The notes under the pieces: generated by a model | What the model was told of the DNA's origin: nothing | Seen by the model: the letters and a program-made list of their open reading frames with translations, nothing else | The model's database searches: none | Source of the DNA: Parcubacteria group bacterium Gr01-1014_31 | Lineage (GTDB): Bacteria; Patescibacteriota; Patescibacteriia; Buchananbacterales; GWA2-38-13 | NCBI GenBank assembly: GCA_007376135.1 | Contig: VMFR01000002.1 | Coordinates: 156,870-220,869, forward strand | Direction: 5' to 3' | DNA: 64,000 nucleotides | In this document: positions 5,633 through 47,940 of the stretch, piece by piece | Numbering within the stretch: position 1 is the first letter of the stretch | Layout of the letters: each line of letters starts with the position of its first letter | Position numbers and translations under genes: made by a program

Positions 5633-5695
5633 AATGCAAAAGGCAAAAAGTTCAAGTCAAAAGTAATAATTTTTTGATTTTTTGACCTTTGTCCC

Positions 5696-6874: not shown

Positions 6875-7654
6875 ATGCGCTTCGACATCATCACCATTTT
6901 TCCGAATCTCTTTGCTTCCTATCTGGAGGAAACTATCATTGCGCGCGCCATCCGCAAAAAATCGCTGCGCGTGAATCTGGTGGACCTGCGCCGTTTTGCG
7001 AAAGCTGGCGACGCCCACCGCAGCGTGGACGGCCGTCCGTACGGCGGCGGACCGGGAATGATACTCATGGTGGAACCCATCGCTAAAGCCCTTCGGGCTT
7101 TACGAATCAAGAATCAAGAATCAAGAATCAAGGGATCGGATTGGCCCACCGCCTCTCCCCTTGTGGGAGAGGCCCGCCGCGGGGTGAGGGGGCGATCGAA
7201 GGCCCGCGTTGTGATGCTCTCTCCTGATGGCAAGCCATTCACCCAGCGGGAGGCCGAACGGTTGAGCAAGTACGACCGTCTTGTTCTCCTCTGCGGACGT
7301 TACGAGGGGTTTGATGCGCGCACGGTTAAACTTGTGGATGAGAAGCTTTCCATCGGCCCGTACGTGCTCGCCGGCGGTGAATTGCCCGCGATGGTGGTGC
7401 TGGAAGCCGTGGCGCGGCATGTGCCGGGCGTGGTCGGGCACCCCGAGGCGCTGAAGGAGGAAACTTTTTCCCAGGGTATGGACTACGTCGAGTATCCGCA
7501 GTACACGCGCCCGGAAAAATTTGTTCCGGCGGGTCTTCGACTCCGAGGCTCAGACTCGAGGAGCAAGCGTGGGGCGGCATGGCGCGTGCCAAAAATTCTG
7601 CTCTCCGGCGACCACAAAAAGATTGCCGCCTGGCGGCAGGCAAGGACCAAGTAA
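6875..7654 (+). CDS. trmD: tRNA (guanine37-N1)-methyltransferase TrmD, with two in-frame low-complexity insertions
   Basis: MRFDIITIFP..., YGGGPGM and LLCGRYEGFD motifs. An insertion of roughly 20-35 aa between PIAKAL and MLSPDGKPF is encoded by the tandem repeat (gaatcaa)x4 plus a palindrome. Confidence 0.9.
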   Translation: MRFDIITIFPNLFASYLEETIIARAIRKKSLRVNLVDLRRFAKAGDAHRSVDGRPYGGGPGMILMVEPIAKALRALRIKNQESRIKGSDWPTASPLVGEARRGVRGRSKARVVMLSPDGKPFTQREAERLSKYDRLVLLCGRYEGFDARTVKLVDEKLSIGPYVLAGGELPAMVVLEAVARHVPGVVGHPEALKEETFSQGMDYVEYPQYTRPEKFVPAGLRLRGSDSRSKRGAAWRVPKILLSGDHKKIAAWRQARTK

Positions 7655-9330: not shown

Positions 9331-9700
9331 GGGAGCGTTTAAAATCGCTAACGTTCACAACCGGCGCCTAACTGTTTCCACAGCTCCCGACCGCGACGGA
9401 TTGCGGTGCAGGAAAAACAGTGGCATCTGATAGCGGAGACCGTGGCGTAACTGCCAAACCCTCCGCCGCCCTATCAGGTTCCTCTGTTTTTTCTTCACCC
9501 AAAATGGTGAAGGAAAACGGACGTTGACAACTGAAACGTGGTAGGAACAACCACTGTTGTCCCGCTTCGGCGGGGCAACAGCCTACAGTCAATTCCTTTT
9601 TTGTCGGCTCCCATCGGGGGCCGGCAGAGGCTGGTTTCTGAAGCTATCTTTCAGCCTGCTTCGCCACTCGGCGAAGCTATCAATAAAAGAGCTTTCACTT

Positions 9701-11190
<1,490 letters not shown>

Positions 11191-11315: not shown

Positions 11316-11345
11316 CCCCGCCAGGTGGCGGGGTTTTTGTTATAT
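11316..11345 (+). terminator. Rho-independent terminator after the 16S
   Basis: aaaaccccgccaggtggcggggtttttgtt. Confidence 0.55.
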
Positions 11346-23818: not shown

Positions 23819-24055
23819 GCTCCTATCCATACATAGCAATTGTACGGAGGGGAGTTGCAGCTGGTCAATGCGGCGGTGACGTTGACAGTCTGCGGATTTT
23901 ATGGAATGATGAGTGAACATTTTTCCCGCTTGAAGTTGTTCCGCTGACCCTGCTATAGTGCAGGCGTTCCCGTTTTTCCGGCAGTGGCTGTGGTGGTGTG
24001 TCCTCTTCGAATGACGGGACGATTCCCTCTTTGTTATTTTTTTGCATCCTTTGGT

Positions 24056-24113
24056 GGGCGCGTAGCTCAGTTGGTTATCCCGCCCCACGGCGGGACAGGG
24101 AGCGCGTCACTGA
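24056..24113 (+). pseudogene. 5' portion (tRNA positions 1-35) of an interrupted second tRNA-Ile copy, with a 20-22-nt GC hairpin inserted in the D-loop
   Basis: gggcgcgtagctcagttggtta + [tcccgccccacggcgggacagg] + gagcgcgtcactga. With the insert removed it is identical to positions 1-35 of the intact tRNA-Ile 70 bp downstream. Confidence 0.7.
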
Positions 24114-24182
24114 CCCGCCTGCCGGAGTACGGAGTCTTTAATAATGTAATATCTATTCCCCATTCCATCGTTTGTTGCTGTT

Positions 24183-24259
24183 GGGCGCGTAGCTCAGTTG
24201 GTTAGAGCGCGTCACTGATAATGACGAGGTCCCTGGTTCGACTCCAGGCGCGCCCACCA
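24183..24259 (+). tRNA. tRNA-Ile (anticodon GAT), CCA encoded
   Basis: Cloverleaf gggcgcg/cgcgccc acceptor, anticodon loop cTGATaa, T-loop ttcgact, discriminator A + CCA. Confidence 0.85.
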
Positions 24260-24296
24260 GCAGCACGTGATGGGGTGACTCCGTACGGCGGGCAGG

Positions 24297-24359
24297 TAAT
24301 GACGAGGTCCCTGGTTTTTACCCCGTCGAATGGCGGGGCGACTCCAGGCGCGCCCACCA
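24297..24359 (+). pseudogene. 3' portion (positions 36-76) of the interrupted tRNA-Ile copy, with a 22-nt GC hairpin inserted in the T-loop
   Basis: taatgacgaggtccctggtt + [tttaccccgtcgaatggcgggg] + cgactccaggcgcgcccacca. Identical to the intact gene once the insert is removed. Confidence 0.7.
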
Positions 24360-24401
24360 AAGGATGCAAGTTTTCGAGTTCGTCCTTGTCCTACAATTAT
24401 T

Positions 24402-24476
24402 GCCGAGGTAGCTCAGTGGTAGAGCGCAGGCCTGAAGAGCCTGGCGTCGTCAGTTCGATTCTGACCCTCGGCACCA
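24402..24476 (+). tRNA. tRNA-Phe (anticodon GAA), CCA encoded
   Basis: gccgagg/cctcggc acceptor, anticodon loop cTGAAga, T-loop ttcgatt. Confidence 0.85.
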
Positions 24477-24480
24477 CCAG

Positions 24481-24515
24481 AGTCCGACCCCTTGCCGGGG
24501 TCGGCTTTGTTTTAT
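24481..24515 (+). terminator. Rho-independent terminator after the tRNA pair
   Basis: agtccgaccccttgccggggtcggctttgtttta. Confidence 0.55.
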
Positions 24516-24646
24516 GGGAGTGGTTTTTGTATCGGGTTGACAGTTATGTAAAAATATGGTAGAAATAACAGAATGTTCCTTGACCCTTTTCCATCAACCA
24601 TGCGGCCCGCAACGGCCGTAATCCCTCTGTCTAAAAGGAGGACACC

Positions 24647-25792
24647 ATGCAAGGGATCAGTCTCGCCTACCTGATGGCGTGCGTGCGGGCGTTGTGGGGC
24701 GCCAATTCCAATCTCCTCAATACGGCGGTACGGCGTACCGTGACGACCGTGTCCTACGGTAAGGAAGACACACTGGCGTTGGACGCCATCGCCGAGGAGG
24801 AGATCGCCGAATCGCTCACGCGGTTCGACCACAGCGCGACGCTGGTGACCGAGGAGGCGGGTAAACTCGCGTCCGGCGACGGCAACCACCAGCACGGGGC
24901 GCAATTCTTCAGCGATCCGGTGGATGGCAGCAAGCAGCTGCAACAGTTCCTGATGCGGTCGAAGTTCGACCCGCAGGCGCGCGTGGCCGATCTCATCTAT
25001 GCCTCGTCGGCGGTCGCCGACTGGGAGAAGATGCATGGCGCGCCGGCCAGCGTGACCGGCGCCTGTAGCGCCATTACGATGGTGCGCGACGGTGTACCGG
25101 TCTTTTCGGCCATTCTCAACTTCATCAGCCAGGAGCTGGTTGTGGCGTGCCGCGACGGTATCGTGCGGATCTCGCTGCCGCACATCAAGGACGGCTTGCC
25201 CGAGCCGTTGACTCCCGCGTGGCTGTTTGGCAACGGTACGCCGCTGTCGTTCGACTGGGCGCCAGCCCAGGAGAAGGATTGGAGCCGGCCGTTCGTCACC
25301 TACCTGCCGAACGACGAGACGTATCGCAGTAACTTCCAGGGCTGCCGCATCTTCGGCGATGACGAGAAGCGGGTCGCTTCGCTGGTCGGCAAGTCCACCA
25401 CCGGTCCCGCGCGGCCGCTCTATCTGTCGGATCTGCATCGCCAGCCCCGCGTCAAGTTCGTCGCCGCCAACGGCGAAAAGATCGGGGAGTGGATCCACTG
25501 GCTGCCGTTCATCCGTTTCGCCAAGCGCGGGGACGAGCCGCTGCTGCGGCTGTACGAAGTGGTGCCCGAGCGCCCGGTGGTCAAGGGTGGCATCCTGATG
25601 AGTCCGCCGCCGGAGTATAGTATCTTCCAGCAGGTCGCTCACGGCGTGTTCCTCATCAACTGCCGCCGCCTCCGCGCGTTCCCTAACCCCTCGCTCTTCC
25701 GCTCCACACTCGTACTGCTGCCGTCGGACAACGTCCACATCCGCAGCATCATGAAGTCCAACCGCCACCGGCGCATCCAGCTCCCCTCCTAG
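24647..25792 (+). CDS. Inositol-monophosphatase/FBPase-superfamily-like protein with a long C-terminal extension
   Basis: DPVDGS metal-binding motif and an upstream EE...TEE segment. The C-terminal ~150 aa have no recognizable motif. Confidence 0.5.
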   Translation: MQGISLAYLMACVRALWGANSNLLNTAVRRTVTTVSYGKEDTLALDAIAEEEIAESLTRFDHSATLVTEEAGKLASGDGNHQHGAQFFSDPVDGSKQLQQFLMRSKFDPQARVADLIYASSAVADWEKMHGAPASVTGACSAITMVRDGVPVFSAILNFISQELVVACRDGIVRISLPHIKDGLPEPLTPAWLFGNGTPLSFDWAPAQEKDWSRPFVTYLPNDETYRSNFQGCRIFGDDEKRVASLVGKSTTGPARPLYLSDLHRQPRVKFVAANGEKIGEWIHWLPFIRFAKRGDEPLLRLYEVVPERPVVKGGILMSPPPEYSIFQQVAHGVFLINCRRLRAFPNPSLFRSTLVLLPSDNVHIRSIMKSNRHRRIQLPS

Positions 25793-25913
25793 GCGCGTCC
25801 GGTGTACCCTCGCCCGCTGCTTTTCCCAAGGCAGCGGGTTTTTTTGCTGCCGCCATCCGGCCGGTGGTATACTAAGGAAGGAACCGAAAACTTATACACT
25901 TTATCTATAACGT

Positions 25914-26591
25914 ATGGTGGAGGGGTTTTTCCGTGCGTTCCAGATCACTGCCCAGGCTGTGTGGGCGGACCTGGTTGCCAACTCTCCGCAGATCCTGGGG
26001 GCGTTGGCGGTCTTATTCTTCGGCACGTTGCTGGCGGCGACGCTGGGGTTGATCGCGTCGCGGTTCGTACGCGCGTTGCGCGTGGATCAGCTTGCCAGCC
26101 AGTTCAAGGTGAACGCCGTGATGGGCAAAGCCGGCATCAAGGATTTTTCCGTCAGCCGGCTGGTCGGATGGGTGGTCAAGTGGTTCTTCGTCGTGGTGGT
26201 GTTCCTGACCGCCGCGGATCTGCTGGGTTGGACGCAGCTGACCGAATTTTTGACGAACGTCGCCATGTACTTGCCCAAGGTACTGGTCGCCGTGCTCATC
26301 CTGTTGGCCGGCACGGTGTTGGCGAACTTCATCAGCCAGGTCGTGCGCCAAGGCGTGACGGCATCTAAGCTGGGCAACGCCGGCGTGCTGTCGGCGTTCA
26401 CCAAGTGGCTGATCATCGTGTTCACGGTGATGGCGGCGCTGGTGCAACTGGAGATCGCCAAAGAGCTGACGCAGATCCTGTTCACCGGGCTGGTGGGGAT
26501 GATCTCGCTGGCTGGAGGTCTCGCGTTCGGCCTGGGCGGCAGGGATGCTGCGAAAGATTTTCTGGACAAATTGCGTCGCGATACGCACTAG
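25914..26591 (+). CDS. Hypothetical polytopic membrane protein (conserved TM-helix repeat type)
   Basis: Four or five hydrophobic helices; no catalytic motif. Confidence 0.5.
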   Translation: MVEGFFRAFQITAQAVWADLVANSPQILGALAVLFFGTLLAATLGLIASRFVRALRVDQLASQFKVNAVMGKAGIKDFSVSRLVGWVVKWFFVVVVFLTAADLLGWTQLTEFLTNVAMYLPKVLVAVLILLAGTVLANFISQVVRQGVTASKLGNAGVLSAFTKWLIIVFTVMAALVQLEIAKELTQILFTGLVGMISLAGGLAFGLGGRDAAKDFLDKLRRDTH

Positions 26592-26708
26592 TTCGGACGT
26601 CCCTACTGCGATGAACACCGCGCCCCGCGAATGCGGGGCGCGGTTCGTTGCGGCACGATTGACGTACGCGATTATTGTGCGCTAGGGTGCAGACAGTCAT
26701 GCGACCGG

Positions 26709-26781
26709 CGGGGATTAGCGCAGTTGGTAGCGCGCTTGGTTTGGGACCAAGAGGTCGCGGGTTCGAATCCCGCATCCCCGA
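26709..26781 (+). tRNA. tRNA-Pro (anticodon TGG), CCA not encoded
   Basis: Acceptor cggggat/atccccg, D-stem gcgc, anticodon arm cttgg-tTTGGga-ccaag, T-arm gcggg-ttcgaat-cccgc. Confidence 0.75.
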
Positions 26782-26798
26782 TTTCAAATTTTTCGTTT

Positions 26799-26875
26799 CG
26801 TGGGTTTCCCGCCACCGTAATGTAATTTATTACGAGGGCGGGACCTCCCGCCAACGGCGGGATGGCAAATCCCAC
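26799..26875 (+). repeat. Copy A of a ~80-bp hairpin repeat (gggtttcccgcc / AT-rich core / ggcgggacc / cccgccaacggcggg)
   Basis: Homologous block-for-block to 36296-36360. Shares the cccgccNNNNggcggg hairpin and the taatgtaat core with the tRNA-Ile locus (24078-24160). Confidence 0.65.
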
Positions 26876-26949
26876 CAGCCCGATTTTTTCTCCCGCATGT
26901 CCCGAGTGGTTTTTCACCGAGCTTCTCCGTTGGCTACTGAAGTGTTGCT

Positions 26950-28956
26950 ATGATTGCAGCGCTTTTCTTTTTTTTACTGCAGCTGGGTGCAGGCTGGGCC
27001 TGTCTGCCGCTGTTGGACCCGACGCGGCGCTGGTCGCTGCCGGTGCGGGCGGTCGCCGGTAGCGTCGTCGGGCTGGTAGTTTCCGGGTATGCGGTTTTGT
27101 TGGCCGCCCTGCTGACGCGTTCATTGTCTTTCGGGATCCTCGCCTTCTCCATTTTGGCCGCCGTGGCGGTCATTTGGCGCTGGCGCTGTGATCCTCCGGT
27201 GAAGGAAAAAGTTTTCGGGGCGTTCGCAGGGATCTCGCGCGCGCCGGCCGCATGGGCGGTGGCCGGTATTGCGGGGCTGGTGAGCCTGCTGGGATTGCAG
27301 GTGTTGCTGCCGGATAAGGTGTTCGTGCGGGCGATCTTCGTCGGCTGGGGGGATGCGGCATACCACTTGAGCATCATCCAGCGGTTCGCCGTGGCGCAGC
27401 CGTTCACGCTGGAGCATCCCGTGTTTTCCGGGCACACCCTCACCTACCCGTTCTTGGTGGATTTTTTGTCGGCGTTGTACCGGCGGCTGGGGGCATCGGC
27501 GCTGTTCTCCTACCACCTGCCCGTCGTTGCCCTGGCGGTCGCCGGGGTCGCGTTGCTTTTCTCCTGGTATCGCACGCTGCGGATCCGCCATGGTCTGGCC
27601 GTGGTGCTCCTGGCGGTGGCGTTGTTCGGTGCGGGTCTGGGGTGGCTGTGGTTGGGTCGCGATTTTTCCGCAGCATGGCAAACCGGAGGCACCGTTGGGA
27701 TTTCGGAAACATTGCGTGATCTGCCGCATGAGTACACCCACCTGGACCGGCGTACCAGCGGACTGCGCGCAGGCACGGAGAGCGACGCGAATATCGTGTG
27801 GATGGTGCCGGTCCTGTCATTCCTTACCCATCAGCGCGGGTTTGCCCTGGGCCTGGCTCTCGGGATGGTTGTGCTCTACGCGCTGGCGATGCGCGCGACG
27901 GCACCCTGGGTAGTTGGAGTGCTGGCGGGTTTGCTGCCTCTGGCGCACGGGCACACTTTTTTCGCGCTCGGGCTGGTCGGCGCGGCGTGGTTTTTGGTCG
28001 GCTGGCCGAACCGGCGATTCTGGCTGCGCGCGGCGCTGCCGGCGGCTATCATCGCGCTGCCGGCGCTCTTGTATCTGCGCGCCGGTCTATCCGGCAGCGG
28101 CGGCGGAACCGCGATGCGCTGGTGGTTGGGGTGGATGACCTGTACCCATGAGCGGCATTGGCTGCTGTGCGACCAGCCTGTCCCGGCGGGCGCCGACACT
28201 TCGGTGCTGTGGTTTTGGCTGAAGAATTTCGGCGGAGTTCTGGTCGCTTGGGCGGCCGTGCTGCTTGTTGCCGTTTCGCGTTGGCGGAAACGGGAGCGAA
28301 CAAGTCTATCGGCAGTCCCATTACTGCTGCCCTCCGTGCTGCTGTTCGCGGTTCCCAACCTGGCGAGGCTGCAGCCCTGGGAGTTTGATAATAATAAGGT
28401 GCTGTTCTGGTGGTGGCTGTTTGCCATCGGCGCCATCGGCCAGTACCTCATGCTGCTGCCGCGGCCGTCCTTTCGGCGGTGGACGGCAGTCGCCCTGGCG
28501 GCGGTCGCGCTGCCGGCGGGGGTTACCGACGTTGCGTCGCGCCTGGGGCATTGGTCCACGTATCACTCCGGGTACGTGCAAGCGGCTGACCGCACGGCCG
28601 CCGACTGGATCATAGAACATTCCGTTCCTAATGCGGTCATTGCCGCCGCGCCCAGCGCCCACAGTTTTGTGCCGTTGCTGACGGGCCGGCCGTTGGCGCT
28701 TGGGTATGAAGGCTGGCTCTGGAGCCAGGGGGTCAACCTTGCGCCGCGCGTGGCGGCGATCTCCGCGCTCGCACGCGGAGAGATCGCCCCGGCCTGTCGC
28801 GAAGGTGTGCAGTTCGTCGTCGCGGATGCCGATTTCTTTCAACGGTTCGGGGGCGACAGCGCGGCGCTGGCGGGGGTAACGGAACTGCGCTGGCAGCAGG
28901 AAACGCCGCGCGGACCACGCCGCATCTACGCGCTCCCCTGTACTCCGCAGCCTTGA
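26950..28956 (+). CDS. Large polytopic integral membrane protein (668 aa, function unknown; possibly a glycosyl/arabinosyl-transferase-like membrane enzyme)
   Basis: More than 12 predicted TM helices plus a C-terminal soluble domain. No recognizable motif. Confidence 0.5.
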   Translation: MIAALFFFLLQLGAGWACLPLLDPTRRWSLPVRAVAGSVVGLVVSGYAVLLAALLTRSLSFGILAFSILAAVAVIWRWRCDPPVKEKVFGAFAGISRAPAAWAVAGIAGLVSLLGLQVLLPDKVFVRAIFVGWGDAAYHLSIIQRFAVAQPFTLEHPVFSGHTLTYPFLVDFLSALYRRLGASALFSYHLPVVALAVAGVALLFSWYRTLRIRHGLAVVLLAVALFGAGLGWLWLGRDFSAAWQTGGTVGISETLRDLPHEYTHLDRRTSGLRAGTESDANIVWMVPVLSFLTHQRGFALGLALGMVVLYALAMRATAPWVVGVLAGLLPLAHGHTFFALGLVGAAWFLVGWPNRRFWLRAALPAAIIALPALLYLRAGLSGSGGGTAMRWWLGWMTCTHERHWLLCDQPVPAGADTSVLWFWLKNFGGVLVAWAAVLLVAVSRWRKRERTSLSAVPLLLPSVLLFAVPNLARLQPWEFDNNKVLFWWWLFAIGAIGQYLMLLPRPSFRRWTAVALAAVALPAGVTDVASRLGHWSTYHSGYVQAADRTAADWIIEHSVPNAVIAAAPSAHSFVPLLTGRPLALGYEGWLWSQGVNLAPRVAAISALARGEIAPACREGVQFVVADADFFQRFGGDSAALAGVTELRWQQETPRGPRRIYALPCTPQP

Positions 28957-29025
28957 TATCCGGGGTCGTTCAGGAATGGTATACTAGGGGAAAGGTCGGA
29001 GGGTCTCAATTTTGTCCCTATCTAT

Positions 29026-29235
29026 ATGGAAAATCAACCAATGCACAGCAATTCATGTTCCTGCCCGCACCACAAGGTGGTGCCGTTGGCGGTAGCCTTG
29101 ATCGGGGCGCTGTTCTTCCTGCAGAACATTGGCGTGCTGGGGAGCGGCATCGTGAACGTGTTGTGGCCGCTGGCGCTGCTCGCCGCCGGTCTGACCAAGG
29201 CGTTCGGGAGCAGTTGCAAGTGCTGCGTGAAGTAG
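29026..29235 (+). CDS. Small membrane protein (69 aa) with C-terminal Cys cluster
   Basis: Two TM-like segments; followed by a terminator hairpin (ggccgccccggtggggcgg). Confidence 0.4.
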   Translation: MENQPMHSNSCSCPHHKVVPLAVALIGALFFLQNIGVLGSGIVNVLWPLALLAAGLTKAFGSSCKCCVK

Positions 29236-29334
29236 CTTACAGGGAAGGCCGCCCCGGTGGGGCGGTTTTCTGTTACCTCTTGTTCCGCGGTTCGTTCAAT
29301 GGTAGGGTTAGGGGTGCTCTAACTCTTTATTTCC

Positions 29335-30333
29335 GTGCCTATGCCCGAGACTACCGTGCGCAAGCCCAACGCTTTTGACGCGTTCGTCCACCTGGTGGCG
29401 TACGTCGCCCTGGTGTGGTCGGCCGTCTCCGTGGGCGGCATCATTTTTCAATTCATCAATCGGTTCGTGCCGGCGCTGGAACCAGGCGCGTACGTCTACG
29501 CGACCGACGCGGTCAGCACCGGCGCGTTGCGGTTCCACATTGCCACGCTGCTCTTGACCGGTCCGTTGTTGCTTTCCATGACCGCCTACCTGCACCGCCT
29601 GTTCAAGCAGGGTGCGCTGGTCACCGACAGCGGCGTGCGGCGCTGGCTGACGTACCTGCTCCTGTTCGCCGCGGCGGTCAACATCGTCGGCAGCGTCATC
29701 GCCTTGGTGTACCAATTCCTCGGCGGCAACTACACGGTGAATTTCCTGCTCAAAGCGGCAACCATCCTCGTGATCGCGGGCGGCATTTTCGGCTTCTACT
29801 TTTGGGAGCTGAAGCGGGGTACCTACCAGACCCGCCATCCCGGTGCCCTCCCGCTGGTGGCCGGCTTGGGCGTACTGTTCGTGGGACTGCTGATTGGCGG
29901 GTTTTTGCTCATCGGTTCTCCGCGCTTGGCGCGGATGCGCGAGTACGACCGGATGCGCGTGGACCGCGCGGTGCAGTTGAACTACCAGTTGGGCGATGAA
30001 TACCGTCGCACCGGTGCACTCCCCGCGACACTTTCCAATTTTGACCCGGCGTTCACCGAGGATCCGGAGCATGGCGCGCCGTTCGTCTACCGCAAGGCAG
30101 CCGACGACCGGTATGAGCTCTGTGTGACGTTCGCGGTATCCGCCCCCGAGCCGGTGGTACCGAAGGGCGTGCCGCCGTCGCGCGTACCCAAGCCCTATGG
30201 GGGCAGCGGCGGCGTCGAGCAGGCGTGGTACGAGCACGGCGAGGGCGAAGTCTGTAATACCTTTACGGTCAAGCGCCAAACTGCTGACGACCAATTCATC
30301 GAGACCCAGGTGGAAAAACCAGCTTCTCGCTAG
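29335..30333 (+). CDS. DUF5671-like membrane protein
   Basis: Four N-terminal TM helices then a soluble C-terminal domain, the arrangement typical of DUF5671 proteins. Confidence 0.5.
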   Translation: MPMPETTVRKPNAFDAFVHLVAYVALVWSAVSVGGIIFQFINRFVPALEPGAYVYATDAVSTGALRFHIATLLLTGPLLLSMTAYLHRLFKQGALVTDSGVRRWLTYLLLFAAAVNIVGSVIALVYQFLGGNYTVNFLLKAATILVIAGGIFGFYFWELKRGTYQTRHPGALPLVAGLGVLFVGLLIGGFLLIGSPRLARMREYDRMRVDRAVQLNYQLGDEYRRTGALPATLSNFDPAFTEDPEHGAPFVYRKAADDRYELCVTFAVSAPEPVVPKGVPPSRVPKPYGGSGGVEQAWYEHGEGEVCNTFTVKRQTADDQFIETQVEKPASR

Positions 30334-30936: not shown

Positions 30937-31086
30937 AGTTTTCTCATTATACGGATTTGCCCCCGTCGCGGGCAAGCGCCCCTTGCCGCGGACGGTTTCG
31001 GGGTGTACCATAGGCGCTACCATCCACGTGCGAAGACTCGTGCTTTCTCCCGCCTACTAATTTTATAGGTATCTCCTCGTGCGAGA

Positions 31087-31157
31087 GCGGGTATTGTATA
31101 ATGGCATTACCTCAGCTTTCCAAGCTGATGACGCGGGTTCGATTCCCGCTACCCGCT
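31087..31157 (+). tRNA. tRNA-Gly (anticodon TCC), CCA not encoded
   Basis: Acceptor gcgggta/tacccgc, anticodon arm tcagc-ttTCCaa-gctga, T-arm gcggg-ttcgatt-cccgc. The D-stem has one U-U mismatch, so the parse is moderately confident. Confidence 0.7.
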
Positions 31158-31202
31158 CTCGCACGAGGAAAGGAAGGTAGGCGGGATCCCGCCCGCGGCG
31201 AG

Positions 31203-31313
31203 ACAAGCTGATGACGCGGGTTCGTCCTATACCAGAGCAAAGCACAGTATAGGACGCCCTGTACCGTGTTCCGCAAAGCGGAACTCTGGTACTGGGGCGA
31301 TTCCCGCTACCCG
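31203..31313 (+). pseudogene. Second copy of the tRNA-Gly 3' half (positions 36-72), interrupted by a 75-nt structured insert in the T-loop (between 55 and 56)
   Basis: caagctgatgacgcgggtt + [cgtcctata...ctgggg] + cgattcccgctacccgc. Identical to the intact gene outside the insert; the insert has nested inverted repeats (ccagag...ctctgg, tcctatac...gtatagga, gttccgc...gcggaac). Confidence 0.65.
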
Positions 31314-31414
31314 CCTACATGAATACCGGCGCTGACGCGCCGGTTTTTGGTGAATAAAAAAAGCCCCGGCGGTTGTAGCAACCGCGCGGGGCCAACGGTG
31401 CGGAGCCAACGAGG

Positions 31415-36108: not shown

Positions 36109-36136
36109 GGCCAGGTAGCCAAGTGGTAAGGCAACG
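36109..36136 (+). pseudogene. Isolated copy of tRNA-Cys positions 1-29 (5' fragment)
   Basis: ggccaggtagccaagtggtaaggcaacg is identical to the first 28 nt of the intact tRNA-Cys 54 bp downstream. Confidence 0.65.
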
Positions 36137-36189
36137 CGGCGTCACGCGTTAAAAATTTCTTTTCGTAGAGTCGCTTTTGGCGGCAGGGA

Positions 36190-36261
36190 GGCCAGGTAGC
36201 CAAGTGGTAAGGCAACGGTCTGCAAAACCGTTATTCACGGGTTCGATTCCCGTCCTGGCCT
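36190..36261 (+). tRNA. tRNA-Cys (anticodon GCA), CCA not encoded
   Basis: Acceptor ggccagg/cctggcc, anticodon arm acggt-cTGCAaa-accgt, T-arm acggg-ttcgatt-cccgt. Confidence 0.8.
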
Positions 36262-36295
36262 CCTTGCCGCCAACTTCGTTGTTGCGTATTGATGG

Positions 36296-36360
36296 ACGGG
36301 TTTCCCGCCTCCGAAATATTTTTTTAAGAAAGGAAGGCGGGACCCCGCCAACGGCGGTGG
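36296..36360 (+). repeat. Copy B of the ~80-bp hairpin repeat (gggtttcccgcc / AT core / ggcgggacc / ccgccaacggcgg)
   Basis: Block-for-block homology with 26799-26875. Abuts the tRNA-Cys 3' fragment. Confidence 0.65.
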
Positions 36361-36379
36361 CGATTCCCGTCCTGGCCTC
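36361..36379 (+). pseudogene. Isolated copy of the tRNA-Cys 3' end (T-loop position 56 to acceptor end)
   Basis: cgattcccgtcctggcctc is identical to the 3' 19 nt of the intact tRNA-Cys and starts exactly at T-loop position 56. Confidence 0.65.
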
Positions 36380-40851: not shown

Positions 40852-41113
40852 TTGTCAAGGGAATCATTTTGTGGTACGTTAGGGCCACGTATTGCAATTA
40901 ACTACGACGTTTGAGGGTGACCCGTGAGCGTTCTGATTTTCTCCATGTTGCATAGCCTGCTTGAACACTCTGGAATCGCCGACAGTGCCGTTTGGCCTGC
41001 CGCCGGTTTCACGTTCACCGCGGCGTTCTTGCCCAGGTAAATCAGGCCCAAACCGCCGCGCCTGCGGGCGCGGACTTCGCTCCGGCCGTCCCCCTCGCCG
41101 TTGGACGGACACT

Positions 41114-42640
41114 ATGAAAAACTTTTTATGGGCGATCGCCCTGACTGCAGGGTTCGCTTTTGGCATTGCGCTCGGGTACTACCTGCGCAAGCTGTGGGCC
41201 ATCCGCCGACGCGACATCATCGAGTCGCGTATCGAGAGCCTCATCAATGAGGCCAAGGCCAAAGAGAAAGAGATCCTGCTGGAGGCCAATGACAAGGCGC
41301 TCAAGCTGATCGAGGAGGCCAAGATCGAAGAGCGTAAGCGTCAGGCCGATCTGCGCGCGGCCCAGCAGCGCTTGGAAAAGCGCGAGGGGCTCTTCGACCA
41401 GAAGATCCTAGAGATCGAATCGAAGAAACAGGAGATCGTCGAGAAGGTTGCAAAGATCGAGCAGGTCAAGGCGGAGATCGCCAAGATCAAGGAAGAGCAA
41501 CTCGCCCGTTTGGAGCAGATCTCCCAGCTCAATCAGGAGGAAGCGAAGCGGCTGCTGTTCGAAAATATCGAGCGCCGCAGCAAGGATGACCTGGCCGCGC
41601 GTATCCGCAAGCTGAATGAGCAGTCAGCCGAGGAGATCGACCGCCAGGCCAAGAAACTCTTGAGTATGGCCATCCAGCGCTGCGCCAGCTCGCACGCCGC
41701 CGAGATCACCACCTCCACGGTCGATCTGCCGTCCGATGAAATGAAGGGCCGCATTATCGGCCGCGAGGGCCGCAACATTAAGGCCATTGAACTGATGACG
41801 GGTGTCGAGATCATCGTGGATGACACGCCGCAGGCCATCACCTTGTCGGGATTTTCGGCCATCCGCCGGCAGGTCGCCAAGCTCGCGCTCATCAAGCTCA
41901 TCGCCGATGGCCGCATCCACCCCGGCCGCATCGAGGAAGCCATTGAGCAGGCGAAAAAGGAACTCGCCACGGATCTGAAGAAGGCCGGCGAGGACGCTCT
42001 CTATGAGGTGGGCATTACCGGTATTCACCCCAAACTGGTCTCCATTTTGGGCCGCTTGAAGTACCGCACCAGCTACGGCCAGAATATCCTGCACCACTCC
42101 GTGGAGGTGGCATACCTGGCCGGGTTGATCGCCGAGGAGCTGGGCGCTGACGTGGCGTTGGCCAAGAAGGGCGGCCTGTTCCACGATATCGGCAAGGCCG
42201 TGGACCACGAGGTCCAGGGCAGCCACCCGGAGATCGGTTACAATATTCTCAAGAAGTTCAACGTCGGCGAGGACGTGGCGCAGATCGCCAAGACCCACCA
42301 CGACGACATGCCGCCCCTGTTGGAGTGTGTGATTGTCAAGGTGGCCGACGCCATTTCGGGCGCCCGGCCCGGCGCCCGCAAGGACACGTATGAGAAGTAT
42401 GTGCAGCGGCTGGAAGAGCTGGAGCAATTGGCATCCAGTTTCCCGGGTGTGGAGAAGACCTACGCCATCCAGGCCGGACGCGAGGTGCGCGTCTTCGTGG
42501 TGCCGCAGGAAGTGGATGACCTGGGCGCGTACAAGCTGGCCTCGGAGATCGCGCGCCGCATCGAGCAGGAGCTGAAGTACCCGGGTGAGATTCGCGTCAA
42601 CGTCATCCGCGAGACCCGCGTCATTGAGTACGCGAGGTAA
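41114..42640 (+). CDS. rny: Ribonuclease Y
   Basis: N-terminal TM helix, coiled coil, KH domain (GRIIGREGRNI) and HD domain (HSVEVAYLAGLIA...HDIGK). Confidence 0.9.
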   Translation: MKNFLWAIALTAGFAFGIALGYYLRKLWAIRRRDIIESRIESLINEAKAKEKEILLEANDKALKLIEEAKIEERKRQADLRAAQQRLEKREGLFDQKILEIESKKQEIVEKVAKIEQVKAEIAKIKEEQLARLEQISQLNQEEAKRLLFENIERRSKDDLAARIRKLNEQSAEEIDRQAKKLLSMAIQRCASSHAAEITTSTVDLPSDEMKGRIIGREGRNIKAIELMTGVEIIVDDTPQAITLSGFSAIRRQVAKLALIKLIADGRIHPGRIEEAIEQAKKELATDLKKAGEDALYEVGITGIHPKLVSILGRLKYRTSYGQNILHHSVEVAYLAGLIAEELGADVALAKKGGLFHDIGKAVDHEVQGSHPEIGYNILKKFNVGEDVAQIAKTHHDDMPPLLECVIVKVADAISGARPGARKDTYEKYVQRLEELEQLASSFPGVEKTYAIQAGREVRVFVVPQEVDDLGAYKLASEIARRIEQELKYPGEIRVNVIRETRVIEYAR

Positions 42641-47241: not shown

Positions 47242-47940
47242 TCACGACCAGCTCTTCGTTTTTAATCCGCGTTCCGCCGCCCGCTCCTGGGCTTCGCGTT
47301 TGCTGGAACCTTCTCCTTCCGCGACCAGCTCTTCGCCCAGGTAGAGACCGACGGTGAAGTGTTTTGCGTGGTCCGGTCCGCGTTCCGACAGCACCTGGTA
47401 CGTGGGGGTGATCCCCAGCTGCTCCTGGGCGGATTCCTGAAAGCGGCTCTTGGGGTCGTGGTAGAGCTGCTCTTCGAAAATGCGCGGTAGTTCCGGCAGC
47501 AGGCAGCGCTCGAGGAACCCTTTGGTGGCGTCGTACCCGCCGTCCAGGTAGATGGCGCCGACTACCGCCTCAAAGGCGTTGGCCAGGATATACTGGCGCG
47601 CTTTGCCCTGGGCGTCGGCCGCTTCGCCGCGGCTCAAGTACAGGTAGGGCTCCAGCTCCAGGTCGCGCGCGACCTTGGCCAGCATTTTGGCGTTCACCAG
47701 CGCCGCGCGCCAGTTGGTCAGTTCGCCCTCCGAATTGGGGTAGCGTTGATAGAGATTTTCGGTCACCACGAGCTCGATGACGGCGTCGCCTAAAAATTCC
47801 AGCCGTTCATTCTGGCCGAGCGGGAAACCCGGGTTCTCATTCAGGTAGGACCGGTGGACCATCGCCTGCTTGAGCAGGTCGAGGGTGTGGAAAGTGACGC
47901 CGAGGCGTTGCTGCAGCGGCCCAAAGTCGGTCAGCGGCAT
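47242..47940 (-). CDS. rnc: Ribonuclease III
   Basis: ERLEFLGDAV catalytic signature and a C-terminal dsRBD. Confidence 0.9.
   Translation of the reverse strand: MPLTDFGPLQQRLGVTFHTLDLLKQAMVHRSYLNENPGFPLGQNERLEFLGDAVIELVVTENLYQRYPNSEGELTNWRAALVNAKMLAKVARDLELEPYLYLSRGEAADAQGKARQYILANAFEAVVGAIYLDGGYDATKGFLERCLLPELPRIFEEQLYHDPKSRFQESAQEQLGITPTYQVLSERGPDHAKHFTVGLYLGEELVAEGEGSSKREAQERAAERGLKTKSWS

What the first reader, a model, noticed from the sequence alone, without database searches (positions are those of the whole stretch)
24056..24359. tRNA-Ile gene nested inside a second, triply interrupted copy of itself
An intact tRNA-Ile(GAT) (24183-24259) lies between the two halves of a second copy split exactly between anticodon-loop nucleotides 35 and 36 (5' part 24056-24113, 3' part 24297-24359).
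- The outer copy carries small GC hairpin inserts at two further positions: the D-loop (tcccgccccacggcgggacagg) and the T-loop between positions 55 and 56 (tttaccccgtcgaatggcgggg).
- With the three inserts removed, the outer copy is 100% identical to the inner gene.
- The sequences abutting the 35/36 break are 20-23-nt inverted repeats (cccgcctgccggagtacggagtc ... gactccgtacggcgggcagg). They would pair into a long helix bringing the two halves together, with the inner tRNA and an AT-rich stretch (tttaataatgtaat...) in the loop.

This is either a tRNA gene carrying three intron-like inserts with a complete tRNA inside one of them, or the footprint of a hairpin-ended element that carries a tRNA-Ile as cargo and inserted into the anticodon loop of a resident tRNA-Ile. 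Either would be novel for a bacterium.
Basis: seen in the sequence. Interest (0 to 1): 0.85.

Follow-up and report, generated by a model that had tools for sequence, protein, structure and literature searches.

The report
Nested "Russian-doll" tRNA genes in Patescibacteria
An intact tRNA-Ile gene really does sit inside the anticodon loop of a second, hairpin-interrupted copy of itself, and this turns out to be one case of a widespread, apparently undescribed habit of Patescibacteria (CPR bacteria), in which small cassettes carrying a replacement tRNA insert into the matching tRNA gene and leave its broken halves as a shell.

Summary
With three inserts removed (21/22, 35/36, 55/56), the outer copy matches the inner tRNA-Ile(GAU) at 77/77 bases. 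The organism is a Parcubacteria/Patescibacteria MAG.

Four related assemblies carry the same locus in different states:
- a different cassette at the same 35/36 site;
- an apparent triple nest;
- extra hairpins at 10/11 and 44/45;
- one outer copy lacking its 3' end.

Three other lineages (16S identity 73–80%) also have a tRNA-Ile inside tRNA-Ile at 35/36. Two of them share the insert termini CCCGCCTGCC…GGCGGGCAGG.

The pattern is general. This window's tRNA-Gly and tRNA-Cys are nested too, as are Thr, Val, Leu and Trp genes in other Patescibacteria. About 11 of 37 unselected tRNAs are affected, and 12 of 18 shells are broken. Four of five GIY-YIG–tRNA modules lie inside cognate shells.

It is not a group I intron and has no archaeal BHB motif. 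The best reading is selfish cassettes that bring a replacement tRNA, with the shells as relics. The enzyme link is inferred, and splicing of the shells is not excluded.

The parts
23882..23959 (+). Two sigma-70-like promoters (23882-23910 and 23930-23959) that drive the tRNA-Ile nest and tRNA-Phe as one operon
   Evidence: Promoter scan. The hexamers are conserved in L064 while the spacers differ. No promoter-like site lies inside the insert.
23992..24055 (+). 64-nt leader segment found only in this strain. It holds a hairpin with a TCGAATG loop (24002-24026) and the leader strand TTGCATCCTTTGGT (24042-24055), which pairs with ACCA plus the trailer
   Evidence: Absent from L062, L063 and L064, which read GTGGTTGT|GGGCGCG. 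Inverted repeat I1 and direct repeat D2.
24056..24077 (+). Shell (outer tRNA-Ile) nt 1-21
24078..24099 (+). Hairpin insert at 21/22: U-CCCGCC-CCAC-GGCGGG-ACAGG. It looks like a miniature of the cassette B termini
   Evidence: Identical in L064; one loop base shorter in L062 and L063.
24100..24113 (+). Shell nt 22-35, ending at G34 A35 of the anticodon
24114..24182 (+). Cassette B 5' arm (X). It has the conserved terminus CCCGCCTGCC, helix strands, and an unpaired AT-rich stretch (24137-24163)
   Evidence: All 4 differences between the window and L064 fall in the AT-rich stretch.
24183..24259 (+). Inner, intact tRNA-Ile(GAU) with encoded CCA. This is presumed to be the functional gene
   Evidence: ARAGORN; Rfam 74.2 bits
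24260..24296 (+). Cassette B 3' arm (Y), ending in the conserved GGCGGGCAGG
   Evidence: 0 of 37 differences from L064.
24297..24316 (+). Shell nt 36-55, starting at U36 of the anticodon
24317..24338 (+). Hairpin insert at 55/56 within the T-loop motif GGTT|CGA: UUUA-CCCCGUC-GAAU-GGCGGGG. It appears to be the inverse orientation of the hairpin-plus-3'-tail type
   Evidence: Compare the L062 44/45 insert CCCGGTC-ATTC-GACCGGG-CAAG and the L023 5/6 insert ending in UAAA.
24339..24369 (+). Shell nt 56-76 (24339-24359) plus the trailer AAGGATGCAA, which pairs with the leader
24402..24504 (+). Ordinary tRNA-Phe(GAA) (24402-24476) and an intrinsic terminator (24484-24504) that close the operon
   Evidence: No arms and no shell fragments.
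31042..31314 (+). Second nest in this window. Intact tRNA-Gly(UCC) (31087-31158) lies between arms UCCCGCCUAC…/…GUAGGCGGGA. The shell 5' exon ends at C35 (31042-31047). The shell 3' half starts at nt 36 (31204-31224) and carries a 73-nt T-loop insert (31225-31297, with CG duplicated) before 31298-31314
36109..36379 (+). Third nest. Intact tRNA-Cys(GCA) (36190-36263) lies between shell pieces idx 1-28 (36109-36136), 48-54 (36296-36302) and 55-73 (36361-36379). A 58-nt double-hairpin insert sits in the T-loop (36303-36360)
47242..47940 (-). RNase III gene. It is a candidate enzyme for cutting the long arm helices and releasing the inner pre-tRNA (inferred)
   Evidence: Pfam Ribonucleas_3_3, Ribonuclease_3 and dsrm

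Best explanation
**What it is.** The locus records repeated insertion of small selfish cassettes into a tRNA gene. Each cassette is a complete tRNA gene held between two complementary, GC-rich arms. It lands inside the cognate resident tRNA gene, most often exactly between anticodon nt 35 and 36, but also in the T-loop and the D-arm.

**Why it is tolerated.** These genomes carry single-copy tRNA genes, so hitting a live gene is survivable only if the cassette brings a working copy of the same tRNA. The inner gene becomes the functional one, still transcribed from the resident promoter. The two halves of the old gene remain as a non-functional shell.

**How nests deepen.** The cargo tRNA carries the same target, so it can be hit again and nests become deeper. 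Dead shells are free to collect further hairpin-only inserts and heterologous cassettes, and to lose pieces.

**Role of the arms.** In the transcript the arms form a long helix. It closes off the inner pre-tRNA from the identical shell sequences and offers an RNase III-type substrate, after which RNase P and 3' processing release the tRNA.

**Likely enzyme.** The autonomous form of the element is probably a free-standing GIY-YIG homing endonuclease gene travelling with a tRNA gene, as seen in other Patescibacteria. The cassettes in this window lack it, so they would be mobilised in trans or be decayed derivatives.

**Shown.** The architecture, the strain polymorphism, recurrence of the site, recurrence across lineages and tRNAs, shell decay, and GIY-YIG co-location.

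**Inferred.** That the shell is inert, that the arms act in RNA processing, and that a GIY-YIG enzyme makes the break.
For: 1. Exact anatomy.
2. Strains with 98.6-99% identical flanks differ in cassette content at the same 35/36 site. The window has B, L062 has the unrelated cassette A, and L063 has B inside A's tRNA. They also differ in small inserts (10/11 and 44/45 present or absent) and in a 64-nt leader.
3. L064's flanks are only 87-89% identical and its tRNA-Phe differs at 14/75 positions, yet it carries the same B cassette and shell 5' part with 4/250 differences, and its shell lacks nt 57-76.
4. Nests at 35/36 occur in three other lineages with 16S identity 73-80%. Two of them have the same termini CCCGCCTGCC…GGCGGGCAGG with different, still complementary, internal arm sequence.
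5. The pattern is general. The window's Gly and Cys, L007 Thr and Trp, the L023 multi-level Thr nest (including a heterologous Thr-GGU cassette and a hairpin-only insert in a dead shell), L090 Val x2 and Leu, and L093 Leu are all nested. Control tRNAs have neither arms nor fragments.
6. 12 of 18 shells carry disabling losses.
7. Plain tRNA-Ile(GAU) genes exist in other Patescibacteria (L088, L093).
8. A survey of 95 complete Patescibacteria genomes found hardly any missing isoacceptors other than Asn and Asp (PMC13011429), so shells are not needed as sole copies.
9. GIY-YIG ORFs lie directly upstream of tRNAs in 4 of 9 places against 1% expected (P about 1e-6). Four of five such modules sit inside a cognate shell.
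10. The phage GIY-YIG enzyme SegB cuts inside tRNA genes at the T-loop motif and drives tRNA-segment duplication (PMC13096335). Three shells in this window are broken in GGTT|CGA, one with a 2-nt duplication.
11. Arm helices contain G·U pairs far more often than A·C appositions, 21 to 6. RNase III is encoded in the window.
Against: - No nuclease, transposase or reverse transcriptase lies in or near the window's cassettes.
- The GIY-YIG ORFs found elsewhere are single-domain proteins of 81-135 aa, with only weak similarity to characterised homing endonucleases.
- Between the window and L064, shell exons, the 21/22 hairpin and the arm helices show 0 of about 146 differences, while the unpaired AT-rich stretch shows 4/27. 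That pattern looks like purifying selection on the paired RNA, shell included, and a purely inert shell does not predict it. Recent transfer combined with constraint on the arms is the alternative.
- Several shells are perfectly intact although the hosts are very distant (L069, L066).
- How a break at 35/36 would be specified in tRNAs with different loop sequences is unknown.
- The L063 triple nest rests on one 1.2-kb contig that ends at the inner tRNA.
- The shell tally and the prevalence estimate come from a small, partly hand-curated sample.
Confidence: 0.58

Rival explanations
1. The outer copy is a functional, multiply interrupted tRNA gene. The hairpins and the tRNA-bearing insert would be introns removed by an unknown protein-dependent endonuclease and ligase in Patescibacteria, so one transcript yields two or more tRNAs. 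This would be a bacterial counterpart of archaeal multi-intron and split tRNAs.
For: - Removing the inserts restores a perfect tRNA.
- Six shells in different lineages keep complete exons with paired stems. One of them (L069) has acceptor and T stems that differ from its inner copy yet are perfectly complementary.
- Paired regions, shell exons and the 21/22 hairpin are invariant between the window and L064 while the unpaired stretch varies.
- G·U pairs exceed A·C appositions in the arms.
- Insert termini share motifs (CCCGCC… …GGCGGG(N)CAGG) that splicing machinery could recognise.
- 35/36 is also the favoured site of group I introns in this phylum (PMC13011429).
Against: - There is no BHB geometry. 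The two junctions face each other at the base of one helix.
- There is no group I core, and A rather than U precedes the 5' junction.
- 12 of 18 shells are broken, including L064 in this same locus.
- Small inserts come and go between near-identical strains, and one variant (L062/L063 at 10/11) has lost its 3' CAGG.
- The 55/56 hairpin looks like an inverted copy of the hairpin-plus-tail type, which an RNA signal would not tolerate.
- The innermost functional copies never carry small inserts.
- No splicing endonuclease or RtcB was found in the 64 kb, which is weak evidence.
Confidence: 0.15
2. The nests are not made by mobile cassettes. They would arise in situ from error-prone repair or replication restart at fragile, highly transcribed tRNA genes. 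Breaks in the loops would be patched by copying the gene again from a sister chromosome, with the GC hairpins as templated or fold-back repair scars. Similar sites would then reflect similar fragility.
For: - In the window the cargo is identical to the shell (77/77), as expected for a local copy.
- Nested tRNAs are always cognate or nearly so.
- The hairpin family (CC)(TGCC)n/(GGCA)n(GG) varies in repeat number like a slippage product.
- One T-loop insert shows a 2-nt duplication.
- No element-encoded enzyme lies in the window.
Against: - The arms are not copies of the shell's own flanks or of tRNA sequence (leader and trailer compared).
- The same 10-nt termini and the same 16-mer hairpin recur in hosts with 73-80% 16S identity and in different tRNAs.
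- In L069 and L065 the cargo differs from the shell.
- The nest is nearly identical between genomes whose flanks differ by 11-19%.
- GIY-YIG genes lie inside some cassettes.
Confidence: 0.2
3. Assembly chimera: reads from strain variants or repeats were mis-joined to give an apparent nest.
For: - The source is a metagenome assembly.
- Several short-read contigs break near this locus (L002, L060 and L063 end at or next to it).
Against: - The shared exact repeats are at most 22 nt, far below the assembly k-mers.
- The same architecture was recovered in at least four independent assemblies of this lineage and in at least six contigs of three other lineages.
- The internal logic (perfect exon restoration, complementary arms) is not what mis-joins produce.
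Confidence: 0.01

Closest known systems
Free-standing GIY-YIG homing endonucleases associated with tRNA genes (phage T4/T6 SegB; 'intronless homing')
   Same: - A GIY-YIG gene sits next to tRNA genes.
- The enzyme breaks DNA inside tRNA genes at the T-loop motif.
- Repair duplicates or co-converts a segment containing a whole tRNA gene (PMC13096335).
- In Patescibacteria, GIY-YIG ORFs lie directly upstream of tRNAs and inside shells of the cognate tRNA.
   Different: - SegB gives tandem amplification or marker replacement in phage genomes, not a gene nested inside its own broken copy.
- The cassettes in this window carry no endonuclease.
- The Patescibacterial ORFs are catalytic-domain-only proteins of unknown activity.
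- The dominant site here is 35/36, not the T-loop.
[quoted passage not shown] 2026, PMC13011429)
   Same: - Same phylum.
- Same unusual insertion point between anticodon nt 35 and 36.
- Standard tRNA finders likewise miss the interrupted copy.
   Different: - Those are self-splicing ribozymes of 200 nt or more, with U35 at -1.
- Here the 5' exon ends in A (Ile), C (Gly) or G (Thr).
- Apart from the tRNA, the inserts are 40-110 nt of simple helix.
- Rfam finds no intron core.
Archaeal multi-intron, split and tri-split tRNA genes (BHB-dependent; Thermoproteales, Nanoarchaeum, Caldivirga)
   Same: - Several short inserts at non-canonical positions (D-arm, anticodon loop, variable loop, T-loop).
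- The halves are held together by GC-rich complementary sequences.
- Insert sequences are shared between positions.
- Strain-level heterogeneity (compare PMC3293823).
   Different: - No bulge-helix-bulge motif at any junction examined.
- The hosts are bacteria with no known splicing endonuclease.
- An intact copy of the same tRNA sits inside the insert.
- Most shells are broken.
Integrative elements that target tRNA genes and restore them (tyrosine-integrase islands, prophages, pNOB8/SSV-type)
   Same: The element inserts into a tRNA gene, supplies sequence that keeps a functional tRNA, and leaves a tRNA fragment behind.
   Different: - Those carry an integrase and kilobases of cargo.
- They duplicate only the part of the tRNA 3' of the crossover, as direct repeats.
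- Here a whole tRNA of about 77 nt plus arms (119-188 nt in all) sits between both halves, with no integrase and no att-type repeat.
Small palindromic mobile elements inside genes (REP/BIME, MITEs, Rickettsia palindromic elements)
   Same: Short GC-rich hairpin inserts occur with conserved sequence families across genomes, sometimes inside RNA genes. Both orientations seem to occur.
   Different: - No target-site duplication.
- Not dispersed through the window.
- Tightly concentrated in tRNA genes.
- Some carry a tRNA in the hairpin tip.
'Fractured genes' split by a free-standing homing endonuclease gene (Dassa et al. 2009, PMC2677866)
   Same: A selfish endonuclease cassette sits inside an essential gene, and function is rescued by a trick other than excision of the DNA. 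This comparison rests on the title and abstract only.
   Different: - There the rescue is protein trans-splicing by split inteins.
- Here the rescue is a complete spare copy of the gene carried by the cassette.

Membership tests
Bacterial group I intron in a tRNA anticodon loop | Uridine at the last position of the 5' exon (the U·G pair in P1) | tested here: not met
   The 5' exon ends in A35 (…CACTGA|CCCGCC) in all the Ile nests, in C35 in Gly and in G35 in Thr.
Bacterial group I intron in a tRNA anticodon loop | Conserved catalytic core (P3-P9), detectable by the Rfam Intron_gpI model; length of about 200 nt or more | tested here: not met
   There is no Rfam hit other than tRNA in 24056-24359, either at gathering score or at E<=1. 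Excluding the inner tRNA, the insert holds only 106 nt of helix and an AT-rich loop.
Archaeal-type BHB intron / split tRNA | Bulge-helix-bulge motif: two 3-nt bulges on opposite strands separated by 4 bp, each containing a splice site | tested here: not met
   Folding of five nests shows that in the B type the two junctions lie directly opposite each other (an A35-U36 pair next to C1-G-1). The A type can form a 4-nt bulge, 3 bp and a 1-nt bulge at best. Neither register places both sites as the motif requires.
Archaeal-type BHB intron / split tRNA | Splicing endonuclease (EndA) and RtcB-type ligase encoded in the genome | not testable with these tools
   Only 64 kb of the genome is available. 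None was found among the ORFs scanned.
Archaeal-type BHB intron / split tRNA | Joining the exons gives a complete, foldable tRNA | tested here: met
   77/77 identity to the intact gene after removing the inserts. However, 12 of 18 shells elsewhere fail this test.
Free-standing homing-endonuclease cassette (SegB-like) | Endonuclease gene within or adjacent to the mobile segment | tested here: not met
   tblastn finds no GIY-YIG gene in the window, and Pfam finds no nuclease near the nests. The feature is met in other Patescibacterial nests: L093 Leu, L090 Leu and Val, L007 Trp.
Free-standing homing-endonuclease cassette (SegB-like) | Filled and empty alleles coexist among relatives | tested here: inconclusive
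   L062 (A's tRNA intact) against L063 (the same tRNA carrying B) forms a filled/empty pair for B, but the L063 contig ends inside the nest. Plain tRNA-Ile genes were seen only in distant Patescibacteria.
Free-standing homing-endonuclease cassette (SegB-like) | The enzyme cleaves the cassette-free target gene | not testable with these tools
   This needs biochemistry. The only indirect hints are breaks in the T-loop motif GGTT|CGA and one 2-nt duplication.
tRNA-targeting integrative element (tyrosine/serine recombinase) | Recombinase gene, and direct repeats consisting of the 3' part of the tRNA at both ends | tested here: not met
   No recombinase lies in the cassette. The insert is flanked by the 5' half on one side and the 3' half on the other, with no repeated core.
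MITE / REP-like palindromic element | Terminal inverted repeats or a hairpin | tested here: met
   Arms and hairpins are shown. The same 16-mer hairpin, CCTGCCTGCCGGCAGG, occurs in L064, L011 and L027, and a longer form in L093.
MITE / REP-like palindromic element | Target-site duplication, and many dispersed copies in the genome | tested here: not met
   No duplication at the Ile junctions. The motifs do not occur elsewhere in the 64 kb, apart from ordinary terminators.
IS200/IS605-type (PATE) element | Separate subterminal hairpins at each end, insertion 3' of a fixed tetranucleotide, and a TnpA(Y1) gene somewhere | tested here: not met
   The two ends pair with each other rather than folding separately. 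The 5' flanks differ (GTAG, GTTA, CTGA, ACGA, GGTT). TnpA could not be tested genome-wide.

The most novel reading that the evidence does not exclude
The shells are not relics. Patescibacteria would possess an undescribed, protein-dependent tRNA splicing system that removes hairpin inserts and whole tRNA-bearing inserts at non-BHB junctions (35/36, D-arm, T-loop). Nested genes would then be polycistronic 'tRNA-in-intron' units that yield several tRNAs, and the shared termini (CCCGCC… …GGCGGG(N)CAGG) would be the recognition signal. That would be the first non-ribozyme tRNA splicing in Bacteria, and a link to archaeal split tRNAs.
Probability: 0.12. Interest if true: 0.95.

Novelty: new variant of a known kind. 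Interest (0 to 1): 0.8.

Why it matters
- **A new solution to an old problem for selfish DNA.** To live inside an essential single-copy gene, introns and inteins splice themselves out, and integrative elements rebuild the gene end. These cassettes simply bring a spare copy, which produces genes nested in their own remains.
- **Fast turnover of tRNA genes.** It would account for rapid replacement and horizontal spread of tRNA genes in a phylum with minimal genomes.
- **A mechanistic lead.** Position 35/36 may be a hotspot in Patescibacteria for this reason, possibly also for their group I introns.
- **A caution for annotation.** tRNA finders report only the innermost copy, so shells, hairpins and the cassettes are invisible in current annotation. 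They may also break short-read assemblies at tRNA loci.
- **If the shells are spliced.** Bacteria would then have a protein-based tRNA splicing pathway.
- **Practical use.** The arms act as natural insulators that let a tRNA fold correctly among identical flanking sequence, which may be useful for engineered tRNA scaffolds.

Tried and rejected
- **Group I intron.** Rejected: A, not U, at -1, and no Rfam core.
- **BHB intron.** Rejected: junction geometry is wrong.
- **Decayed tandem triplication.** This would have the insert arms as degenerate tRNA halves. Rejected because the arms show no significant similarity to the tRNA (shuffle p 0.3-0.96).
- **Genome-wide repeat.** The insert motifs occur nowhere else in the window, and the other CCCGCC hairpins are terminators followed by runs of T.
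- **Phage or viral origin.** All 17 IMG/VR matches to the junction 16-mer are chance hits in coding sequence. INPHARED gives only ordinary tRNA matches.
- **Synteny through the downstream 381-aa gene.** GTDB relatives are only 33-42% identical and have no tRNA-Ile nearby. The 96% relatives (L059-L061) lose synteny at about 24531, where they carry an rve-type IS.
- **Own promoter inside the insert.** None found.
- **GIY-YIG or other nuclease, transposase or RT in the window.** None found.
- **Naming the GIY-YIG ORFs.** NCBIfam and PHROGs give only weak catalytic-domain hits.
- **Close relatives of the L069 host for an empty site.** The nearest cca homologue is only 58% identical. Those loci did, however, yield plain tRNA-Ile genes and new nests.
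- **Literature.** Six searches found no description of nested bacterial tRNA genes.
Full report
**1. Observation**

ARAGORN and Rfam find one tRNA-Ile(GAU) at 24183-24259. Around it lie four pieces of a second copy:
- 24056-24077 (nt 1-21)
- 24100-24113 (nt 22-35)
- 24297-24316 (nt 36-55)
- 24339-24359 (nt 56-76)

They are separated by a 22-nt hairpin at 21/22, a 183-nt insert at 35/36 that contains the intact gene, and a 22-nt hairpin at 55/56. Removing the three inserts gives 77/77 identity to the inner gene. An exact concatenation of all the parts reproduces the sequence.

The insert ends pair with each other. A perfect 21-nt inverted repeat (24042-24062 / 24349-24369) also extends the outer acceptor stem through ACCA. 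The whole 345 nt folds at -187.6 kcal/mol, z = -10.

Two promoter-like sites (23882-23959) and a terminator (24484-24504) frame the nest and an ordinary tRNA-Phe as one operon. The insert has no promoter of its own. ARAGORN does not see the outer copy even in intron mode.

**2. Organism and independent assemblies**

The window is identical to part of a 288-kb ENA metagenome contig. Its proteins are those of the NCBI MAG 'Parcubacteria group bacterium Gr01-1014_31'. GC content is 61%, and the 16S gene (9695-11188) is not followed by a 23S gene.

Anchoring on the upstream ECF sigma-factor gene retrieved three further assemblies of relatives. All carry the nest, each in a different state (parses verified):
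- **L062** (flank 99% identical). The shell has five inserts: 10/11, 21/22, 35/36, 44/45 and 55/56. The 35/36 insert is an unrelated cassette, 'A': CCCCGGTACCAAAAATTT – tRNA – ACCCAAAATTTGGTACGGGGCAGG.
- **L063** (98.6%). It has the same shell and cassette A, but A's tRNA is itself interrupted at 35/36 by the window's cassette 'B', giving three levels. The contig ends at the innermost CCA, so the 3' side is unseen.
- **L064** (an NCBI MAG; flanks 87-89% identical, tRNA-Phe differing at 14/75). It has cassette B, the 21/22 hairpin and a 16-nt hairpin at 10/11, but its shell lacks nt 57-76.

The window alone has a 64-nt leader segment (23992-24055). In short, strains that differ by about 1% in their flanks differ by five or more structural events within 300 bp.

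**3. An unexplained pattern of conservation**

Between the window and L064 the promoter region differs at 19/151 positions and tRNA-Phe at 14/75. The nested block 24067-24316 differs at only 4/250, and all four changes lie in the unpaired AT-rich part of arm X.

Either the block moved recently between these lineages, or everything that is base-paired in the RNA is under constraint, including shell exons and the 21/22 hairpin. I cannot separate these two explanations. The pattern counts somewhat against a completely inert shell.

**4. The same thing in distant lineages**

One restrictive scan of JGI metagenomes required the identical D-arm and anticodon stem and a non-T at position 36. It returned six contigs representing three more nests, all at 35/36 of tRNA-Ile(GAU).
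- **L065/L068 and L069.** These inserts begin with CCCGCCTGCC and end with GGCGGGCAGG, like B. Further in, the arms differ in sequence but stay complementary.
- **L066/67/70.** This insert has different ends.
- **Cargo against shell.** In L069, shell and cargo differ in the acceptor and T stems, and both are perfectly paired. In L065 they differ in the acceptor stem.
- **Host divergence.** The four hosts share only 73-80% 16S identity.
- **Location.** In these hosts the nest lies just downstream of the 16S gene, and in L066 it lies in the 16S-tRNA-Ala-23S spacer.

**5. It is not specific to tRNA-Ile**

I surveyed all 45 tRNAs in the DNA then held for two features: leader-trailer duplexes and nearby fragments of the tRNA's own sequence. 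Both features go together and are absent from control tRNAs.

*In this window:*
- **tRNA-Gly(UCC), 31087-31158.** It lies between arms UCCCGCCUAC…/…GUAGGCGGGA. The shell 5' exon ends at C35. The shell 3' half starts at nt 36 and carries a 73-nt T-loop insert.
- **tRNA-Cys(GCA), 36190-36263.** It lies between shell pieces 1-28, 48-54 and 55-73, with a double hairpin in the T-loop.

*Elsewhere:*
- **L007.** It has a tRNA-Thr cassette (arms CCCGCCCGCC…GGCAGGCGGG) at 23/24 of a decayed Thr shell.
- **L023.** It has a 443-nt construction. A level-0 Thr(UGU) shell carries inserts at 5/6, 23/24, 35/36 and the T-loop. The 23/24 insert holds a level-1 Thr(UGU), which is itself split at 35/36 by a cassette with the intact gene. 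The 35/36 insert of level 0 is a hairpin only. The T-loop insert holds an intact Thr(GGU). Level 1 has a 3-nt deletion in its anticodon stem, and level 0 has lost its T-loop.
- **L088, L090, L093.** These loci were fetched through a cca homologue without regard to nesting. L088 and L093 have plain tRNA-Ile(GAU) genes. L090 Val(GAC), Val(UAC) and Leu, and L093 Leu, are new nests.

*Tally*:
- About 11 of 37 unselected tRNAs are nested.
- At least 10 distinct inserts lie at 35/36, in Ile, Gly, Thr and Val.
- 7 lie in the D-arm, 4 in the T-loop, and a few elsewhere.
- 12 of 18 shells carry disabling losses.

The loop sequences at 35/36 differ between tRNAs. The site therefore seems to be set by position rather than by sequence.

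**6. Hairpin families**

The small inserts are related to the cassette termini.
- The 21/22 insert is U-CCCGCC-CCAC-GGCGGG-A-CAGG, which is B's ends closed by a tetraloop.
- The 10/11 insert of L064, CCTGCCTGCCGGCAGG, equals B's first 12 nt (one mismatch) joined to its last 4.
- That exact 16-mer also occurs in two unrelated Patescibacteria: L011, and L027 where it lies next to a GIY-YIG gene. About 2e-4 such matches would be expected by chance (my estimate for a 16-mer in about 0.45 Mb, both strands).
- A longer form, CCTGCCTGCCTGCCGGCAGGCAGG, sits at 9/10 of the L093 tRNA-Leu shell.
- A second type is a 7-bp stem with a GAAU/AUUC loop and a 4-nt tail. It appears in one orientation at 44/45 in L062 and 5/6 in L023, and apparently inverted at 55/56 in the window. 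That suggests insertion as DNA.

Within the window these motifs occur only at the tRNA nests.

**7. What it is not**

- **Group I intron.** The 5' exon ends in A, C or G rather than U, and Rfam finds no intron core. [quoted passage not shown]
- **BHB intron.** The two junctions face each other at the foot of one helix, so the archaeal motif is not formed.
- **Decayed tandem copies.** The arms are not degenerate tRNA halves.
- **Phage-borne element.** No supporting match.
- **Integrase-type island.** There is no recombinase, and both halves flank the insert.

**8. A lead on the enzyme**

Small GIY-YIG ORFs (81-135 aa) recur in the Patescibacterial loci.
- Four of nine in the unselected DNA lie within 80 nt upstream of a tRNA on the same strand. 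The expected fraction is 1% (P about 1e-6).
- Including L065, four of five such modules sit inside a shell of the cognate tRNA. An example is L093: Leu nt 1-9 | hairpin | nt 10-31 | GIY-YIG | intact tRNA-Leu. L090 has a frameshifted copy before Val(UAC).

The closest characterised parallel is phage SegB. It is a GIY-YIG homing endonuclease that colocalises with tRNA genes, cuts inside them at RAWTSGAAC (the complement of the T-loop sequence) and drives duplication of a segment holding a whole tRNA (PMC13096335). Three shells in this window are broken in GGTT|CGA, and the Gly shell has the CG duplicated. A staggered 2-nt cut could leave such a duplication; the 2-nt 3' overhang of GIY-YIG enzymes is from my own knowledge.

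Against this, the window has no GIY-YIG gene, and the ORFs match named homing-endonuclease families only weakly. The link is therefore inferred.

**9. Most likely mechanism**

*Shown:*
- Cassettes consisting of arm-tRNA-arm, or arm-nuclease-tRNA, sit inside cognate tRNA genes.
- Different cassettes use the same site.
- Cassettes sit inside cassettes.
- Shells accumulate further inserts and lose pieces.
- Uninterrupted genes exist in the phylum.

*Inferred:*
- A break made in a tRNA gene, most often at 35/36, is repaired with a cassette. Insertion into a live single-copy gene survives only if the cassette carries the same tRNA.
- The inner gene takes over under the resident promoter, and the shell is a relic.
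- In the transcript the arm helix (G·U 21 against A·C 6) isolates the inner pre-tRNA from identical shell sequence. RNase III, which is encoded at 47242-47940, would cut it before RNase P and 3' trimming.

A survey of 95 complete Patescibacteria genomes found no systematically missing isoacceptors other than Asn and Asp. This fits shells not being needed.

**10. Rivals**

- **The shells are functional and spliced by unknown machinery.** The intact shells and the conservation pattern in section 3 support this. The 12 broken shells, the absence of any known splicing signal and the inverted hairpin count against it.
- **In-situ repair duplications with hairpin scars.** Termini and hairpins shared between hosts at 73-80% 16S identity, and cargo that differs from its shell, count against this.
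- **Assembly artefact.** Independent recovery effectively excludes it.

**11. Novelty**

Six literature searches found no description of nested bacterial tRNA genes. The literature on tRNA gene fragments covers integrating elements and CRISPR spacers. I rate this as a new variant of a known kind: selfish homing or insertion elements in tRNA genes. Its survival trick (bring a spare copy) and its nested architecture are undescribed.

**Caveats**
- The sample of loci is small and partly selected.
- The shell tally was curated by hand.
- The L063 triple nest rests on one short contig.
- No RNA data were available.

Noticed in passing
window 31042-31314: tRNA-Gly(UCC) (31087-31158) is nested as well. 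It has arms UCCCGCCUAC…/…GUAGGCGGGA. A second 3' half starts exactly at anticodon nt 36 (31204-31224) and carries a 73-nt T-loop insert flanked by a duplicated CG. The shell's 5' half is unrecognisable upstream of GCTTTC (31042-31047).
   Followed up: yes
window 36109-36379: tRNA-Cys(GCA) (36190-36263) is nested between shell pieces idx 1-28, 48-54 and 55-73. The T-loop carries a 58-nt double hairpin (UCCCGCCUCC…GGAAGGCGGGA followed by CCCCGCCAACGGCGGUGG). The middle of the shell is degenerate.
   Followed up: yes
window 23992-24055: A 64-nt segment directly upstream of the outer tRNA-Ile is present only in this strain. It contains a hairpin with the same TCGAATG loop as the 55/56 insert, and the strand that pairs perfectly with ACCA plus the trailer. 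GTGG occurs at both of its borders.
   Followed up: partly
window 23988-23998 and 24472-24482: The far leader of the operon (CTGTGGTGGTG) is complementary to the 3' end of tRNA-Phe plus its trailer (CACCACCAGAG). A helix here could close the whole Ile-Phe transcript (repeat I6).
   Followed up: no
window 9695-11188 (terminator-like hairpin at 11316-11333): The 16S rRNA gene stands alone. It is followed by a terminator-like hairpin, and no 23S, tRNA-Ile or tRNA-Ala follows. The rRNA genes are therefore unlinked, and tRNA-Ile(GAU) lies 13 kb away in its own operon.
   Followed up: partly
L059-L061 (relatives 96% identical to window 24531-30320); L061 1456-2334: In these relatives synteny ends just upstream of the promoter of the 381-aa gene (window about 24531). 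L061 carries an rve-family (IS-type) integrase there. The tRNA-Gly nest region is also arranged differently in L059.
   Followed up: partly
L093 7684-8100; L090 7379-7890 and 8097-8491; L007 6000-6303; L027 3175-3412: Small GIY-YIG ORFs lie directly upstream of tRNA genes and inside shells of the cognate tRNA. One of them, in L090, is frameshifted. In L027 a GIY-YIG gene lies beside the conserved hairpin CCTGCCTGCCGGCAGG.
   Followed up: yes
L011 4577-4592: The exact 16-mer CCTGCCTGCCGGCAGG sits at the tip of a longer hairpin (CTCAGAACT…AGTTCTGAG) in a 40%-GC Parcubacteria contig. The surrounding region looks structured and non-coding, with a T-arm-like GTTCGAGTCCCGG nearby. Neither Rfam nor ARAGORN gives a hit.
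   Followed up: no
L052 (MAG labelled Sedimenticolaceae), around tRNA-Arg(CCG), minus strand of 5648-5724: A 19-nt copy of the tRNA's 5' end lies about 280 nt upstream, and a copy of its 3' end about 190 nt downstream. GC-rich hairpins fill the space between. This may be a nest outside Patescibacteria, or a mis-binned contig.
   Followed up: partly
L065 3335-4956 and 4857-5264; L066 7445-10813: The L065 16S gene has two lineage-specific insertions (95 and 84 nt), and a GIY-YIG ORF overlaps its 3' end. The L066 23S gene spans 3369 nt against a 2925-position model, so it carries insertions.
   Followed up: no
window 24647-25792: This 381-aa protein matches no Pfam family. It is conserved at 33-43% identity across many Patescibacteria, and across a few MAGs labelled as other phyla.
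   Followed up: partly
window 40961-42640, 47242-47940, 6875-7654, 61328-62371: RNase Y, RNase III, TrmD and TsaD genes all lie within the same 64 kb as three nested tRNAs. RNase III is relevant to processing of the long arm helices.
   Followed up: partly
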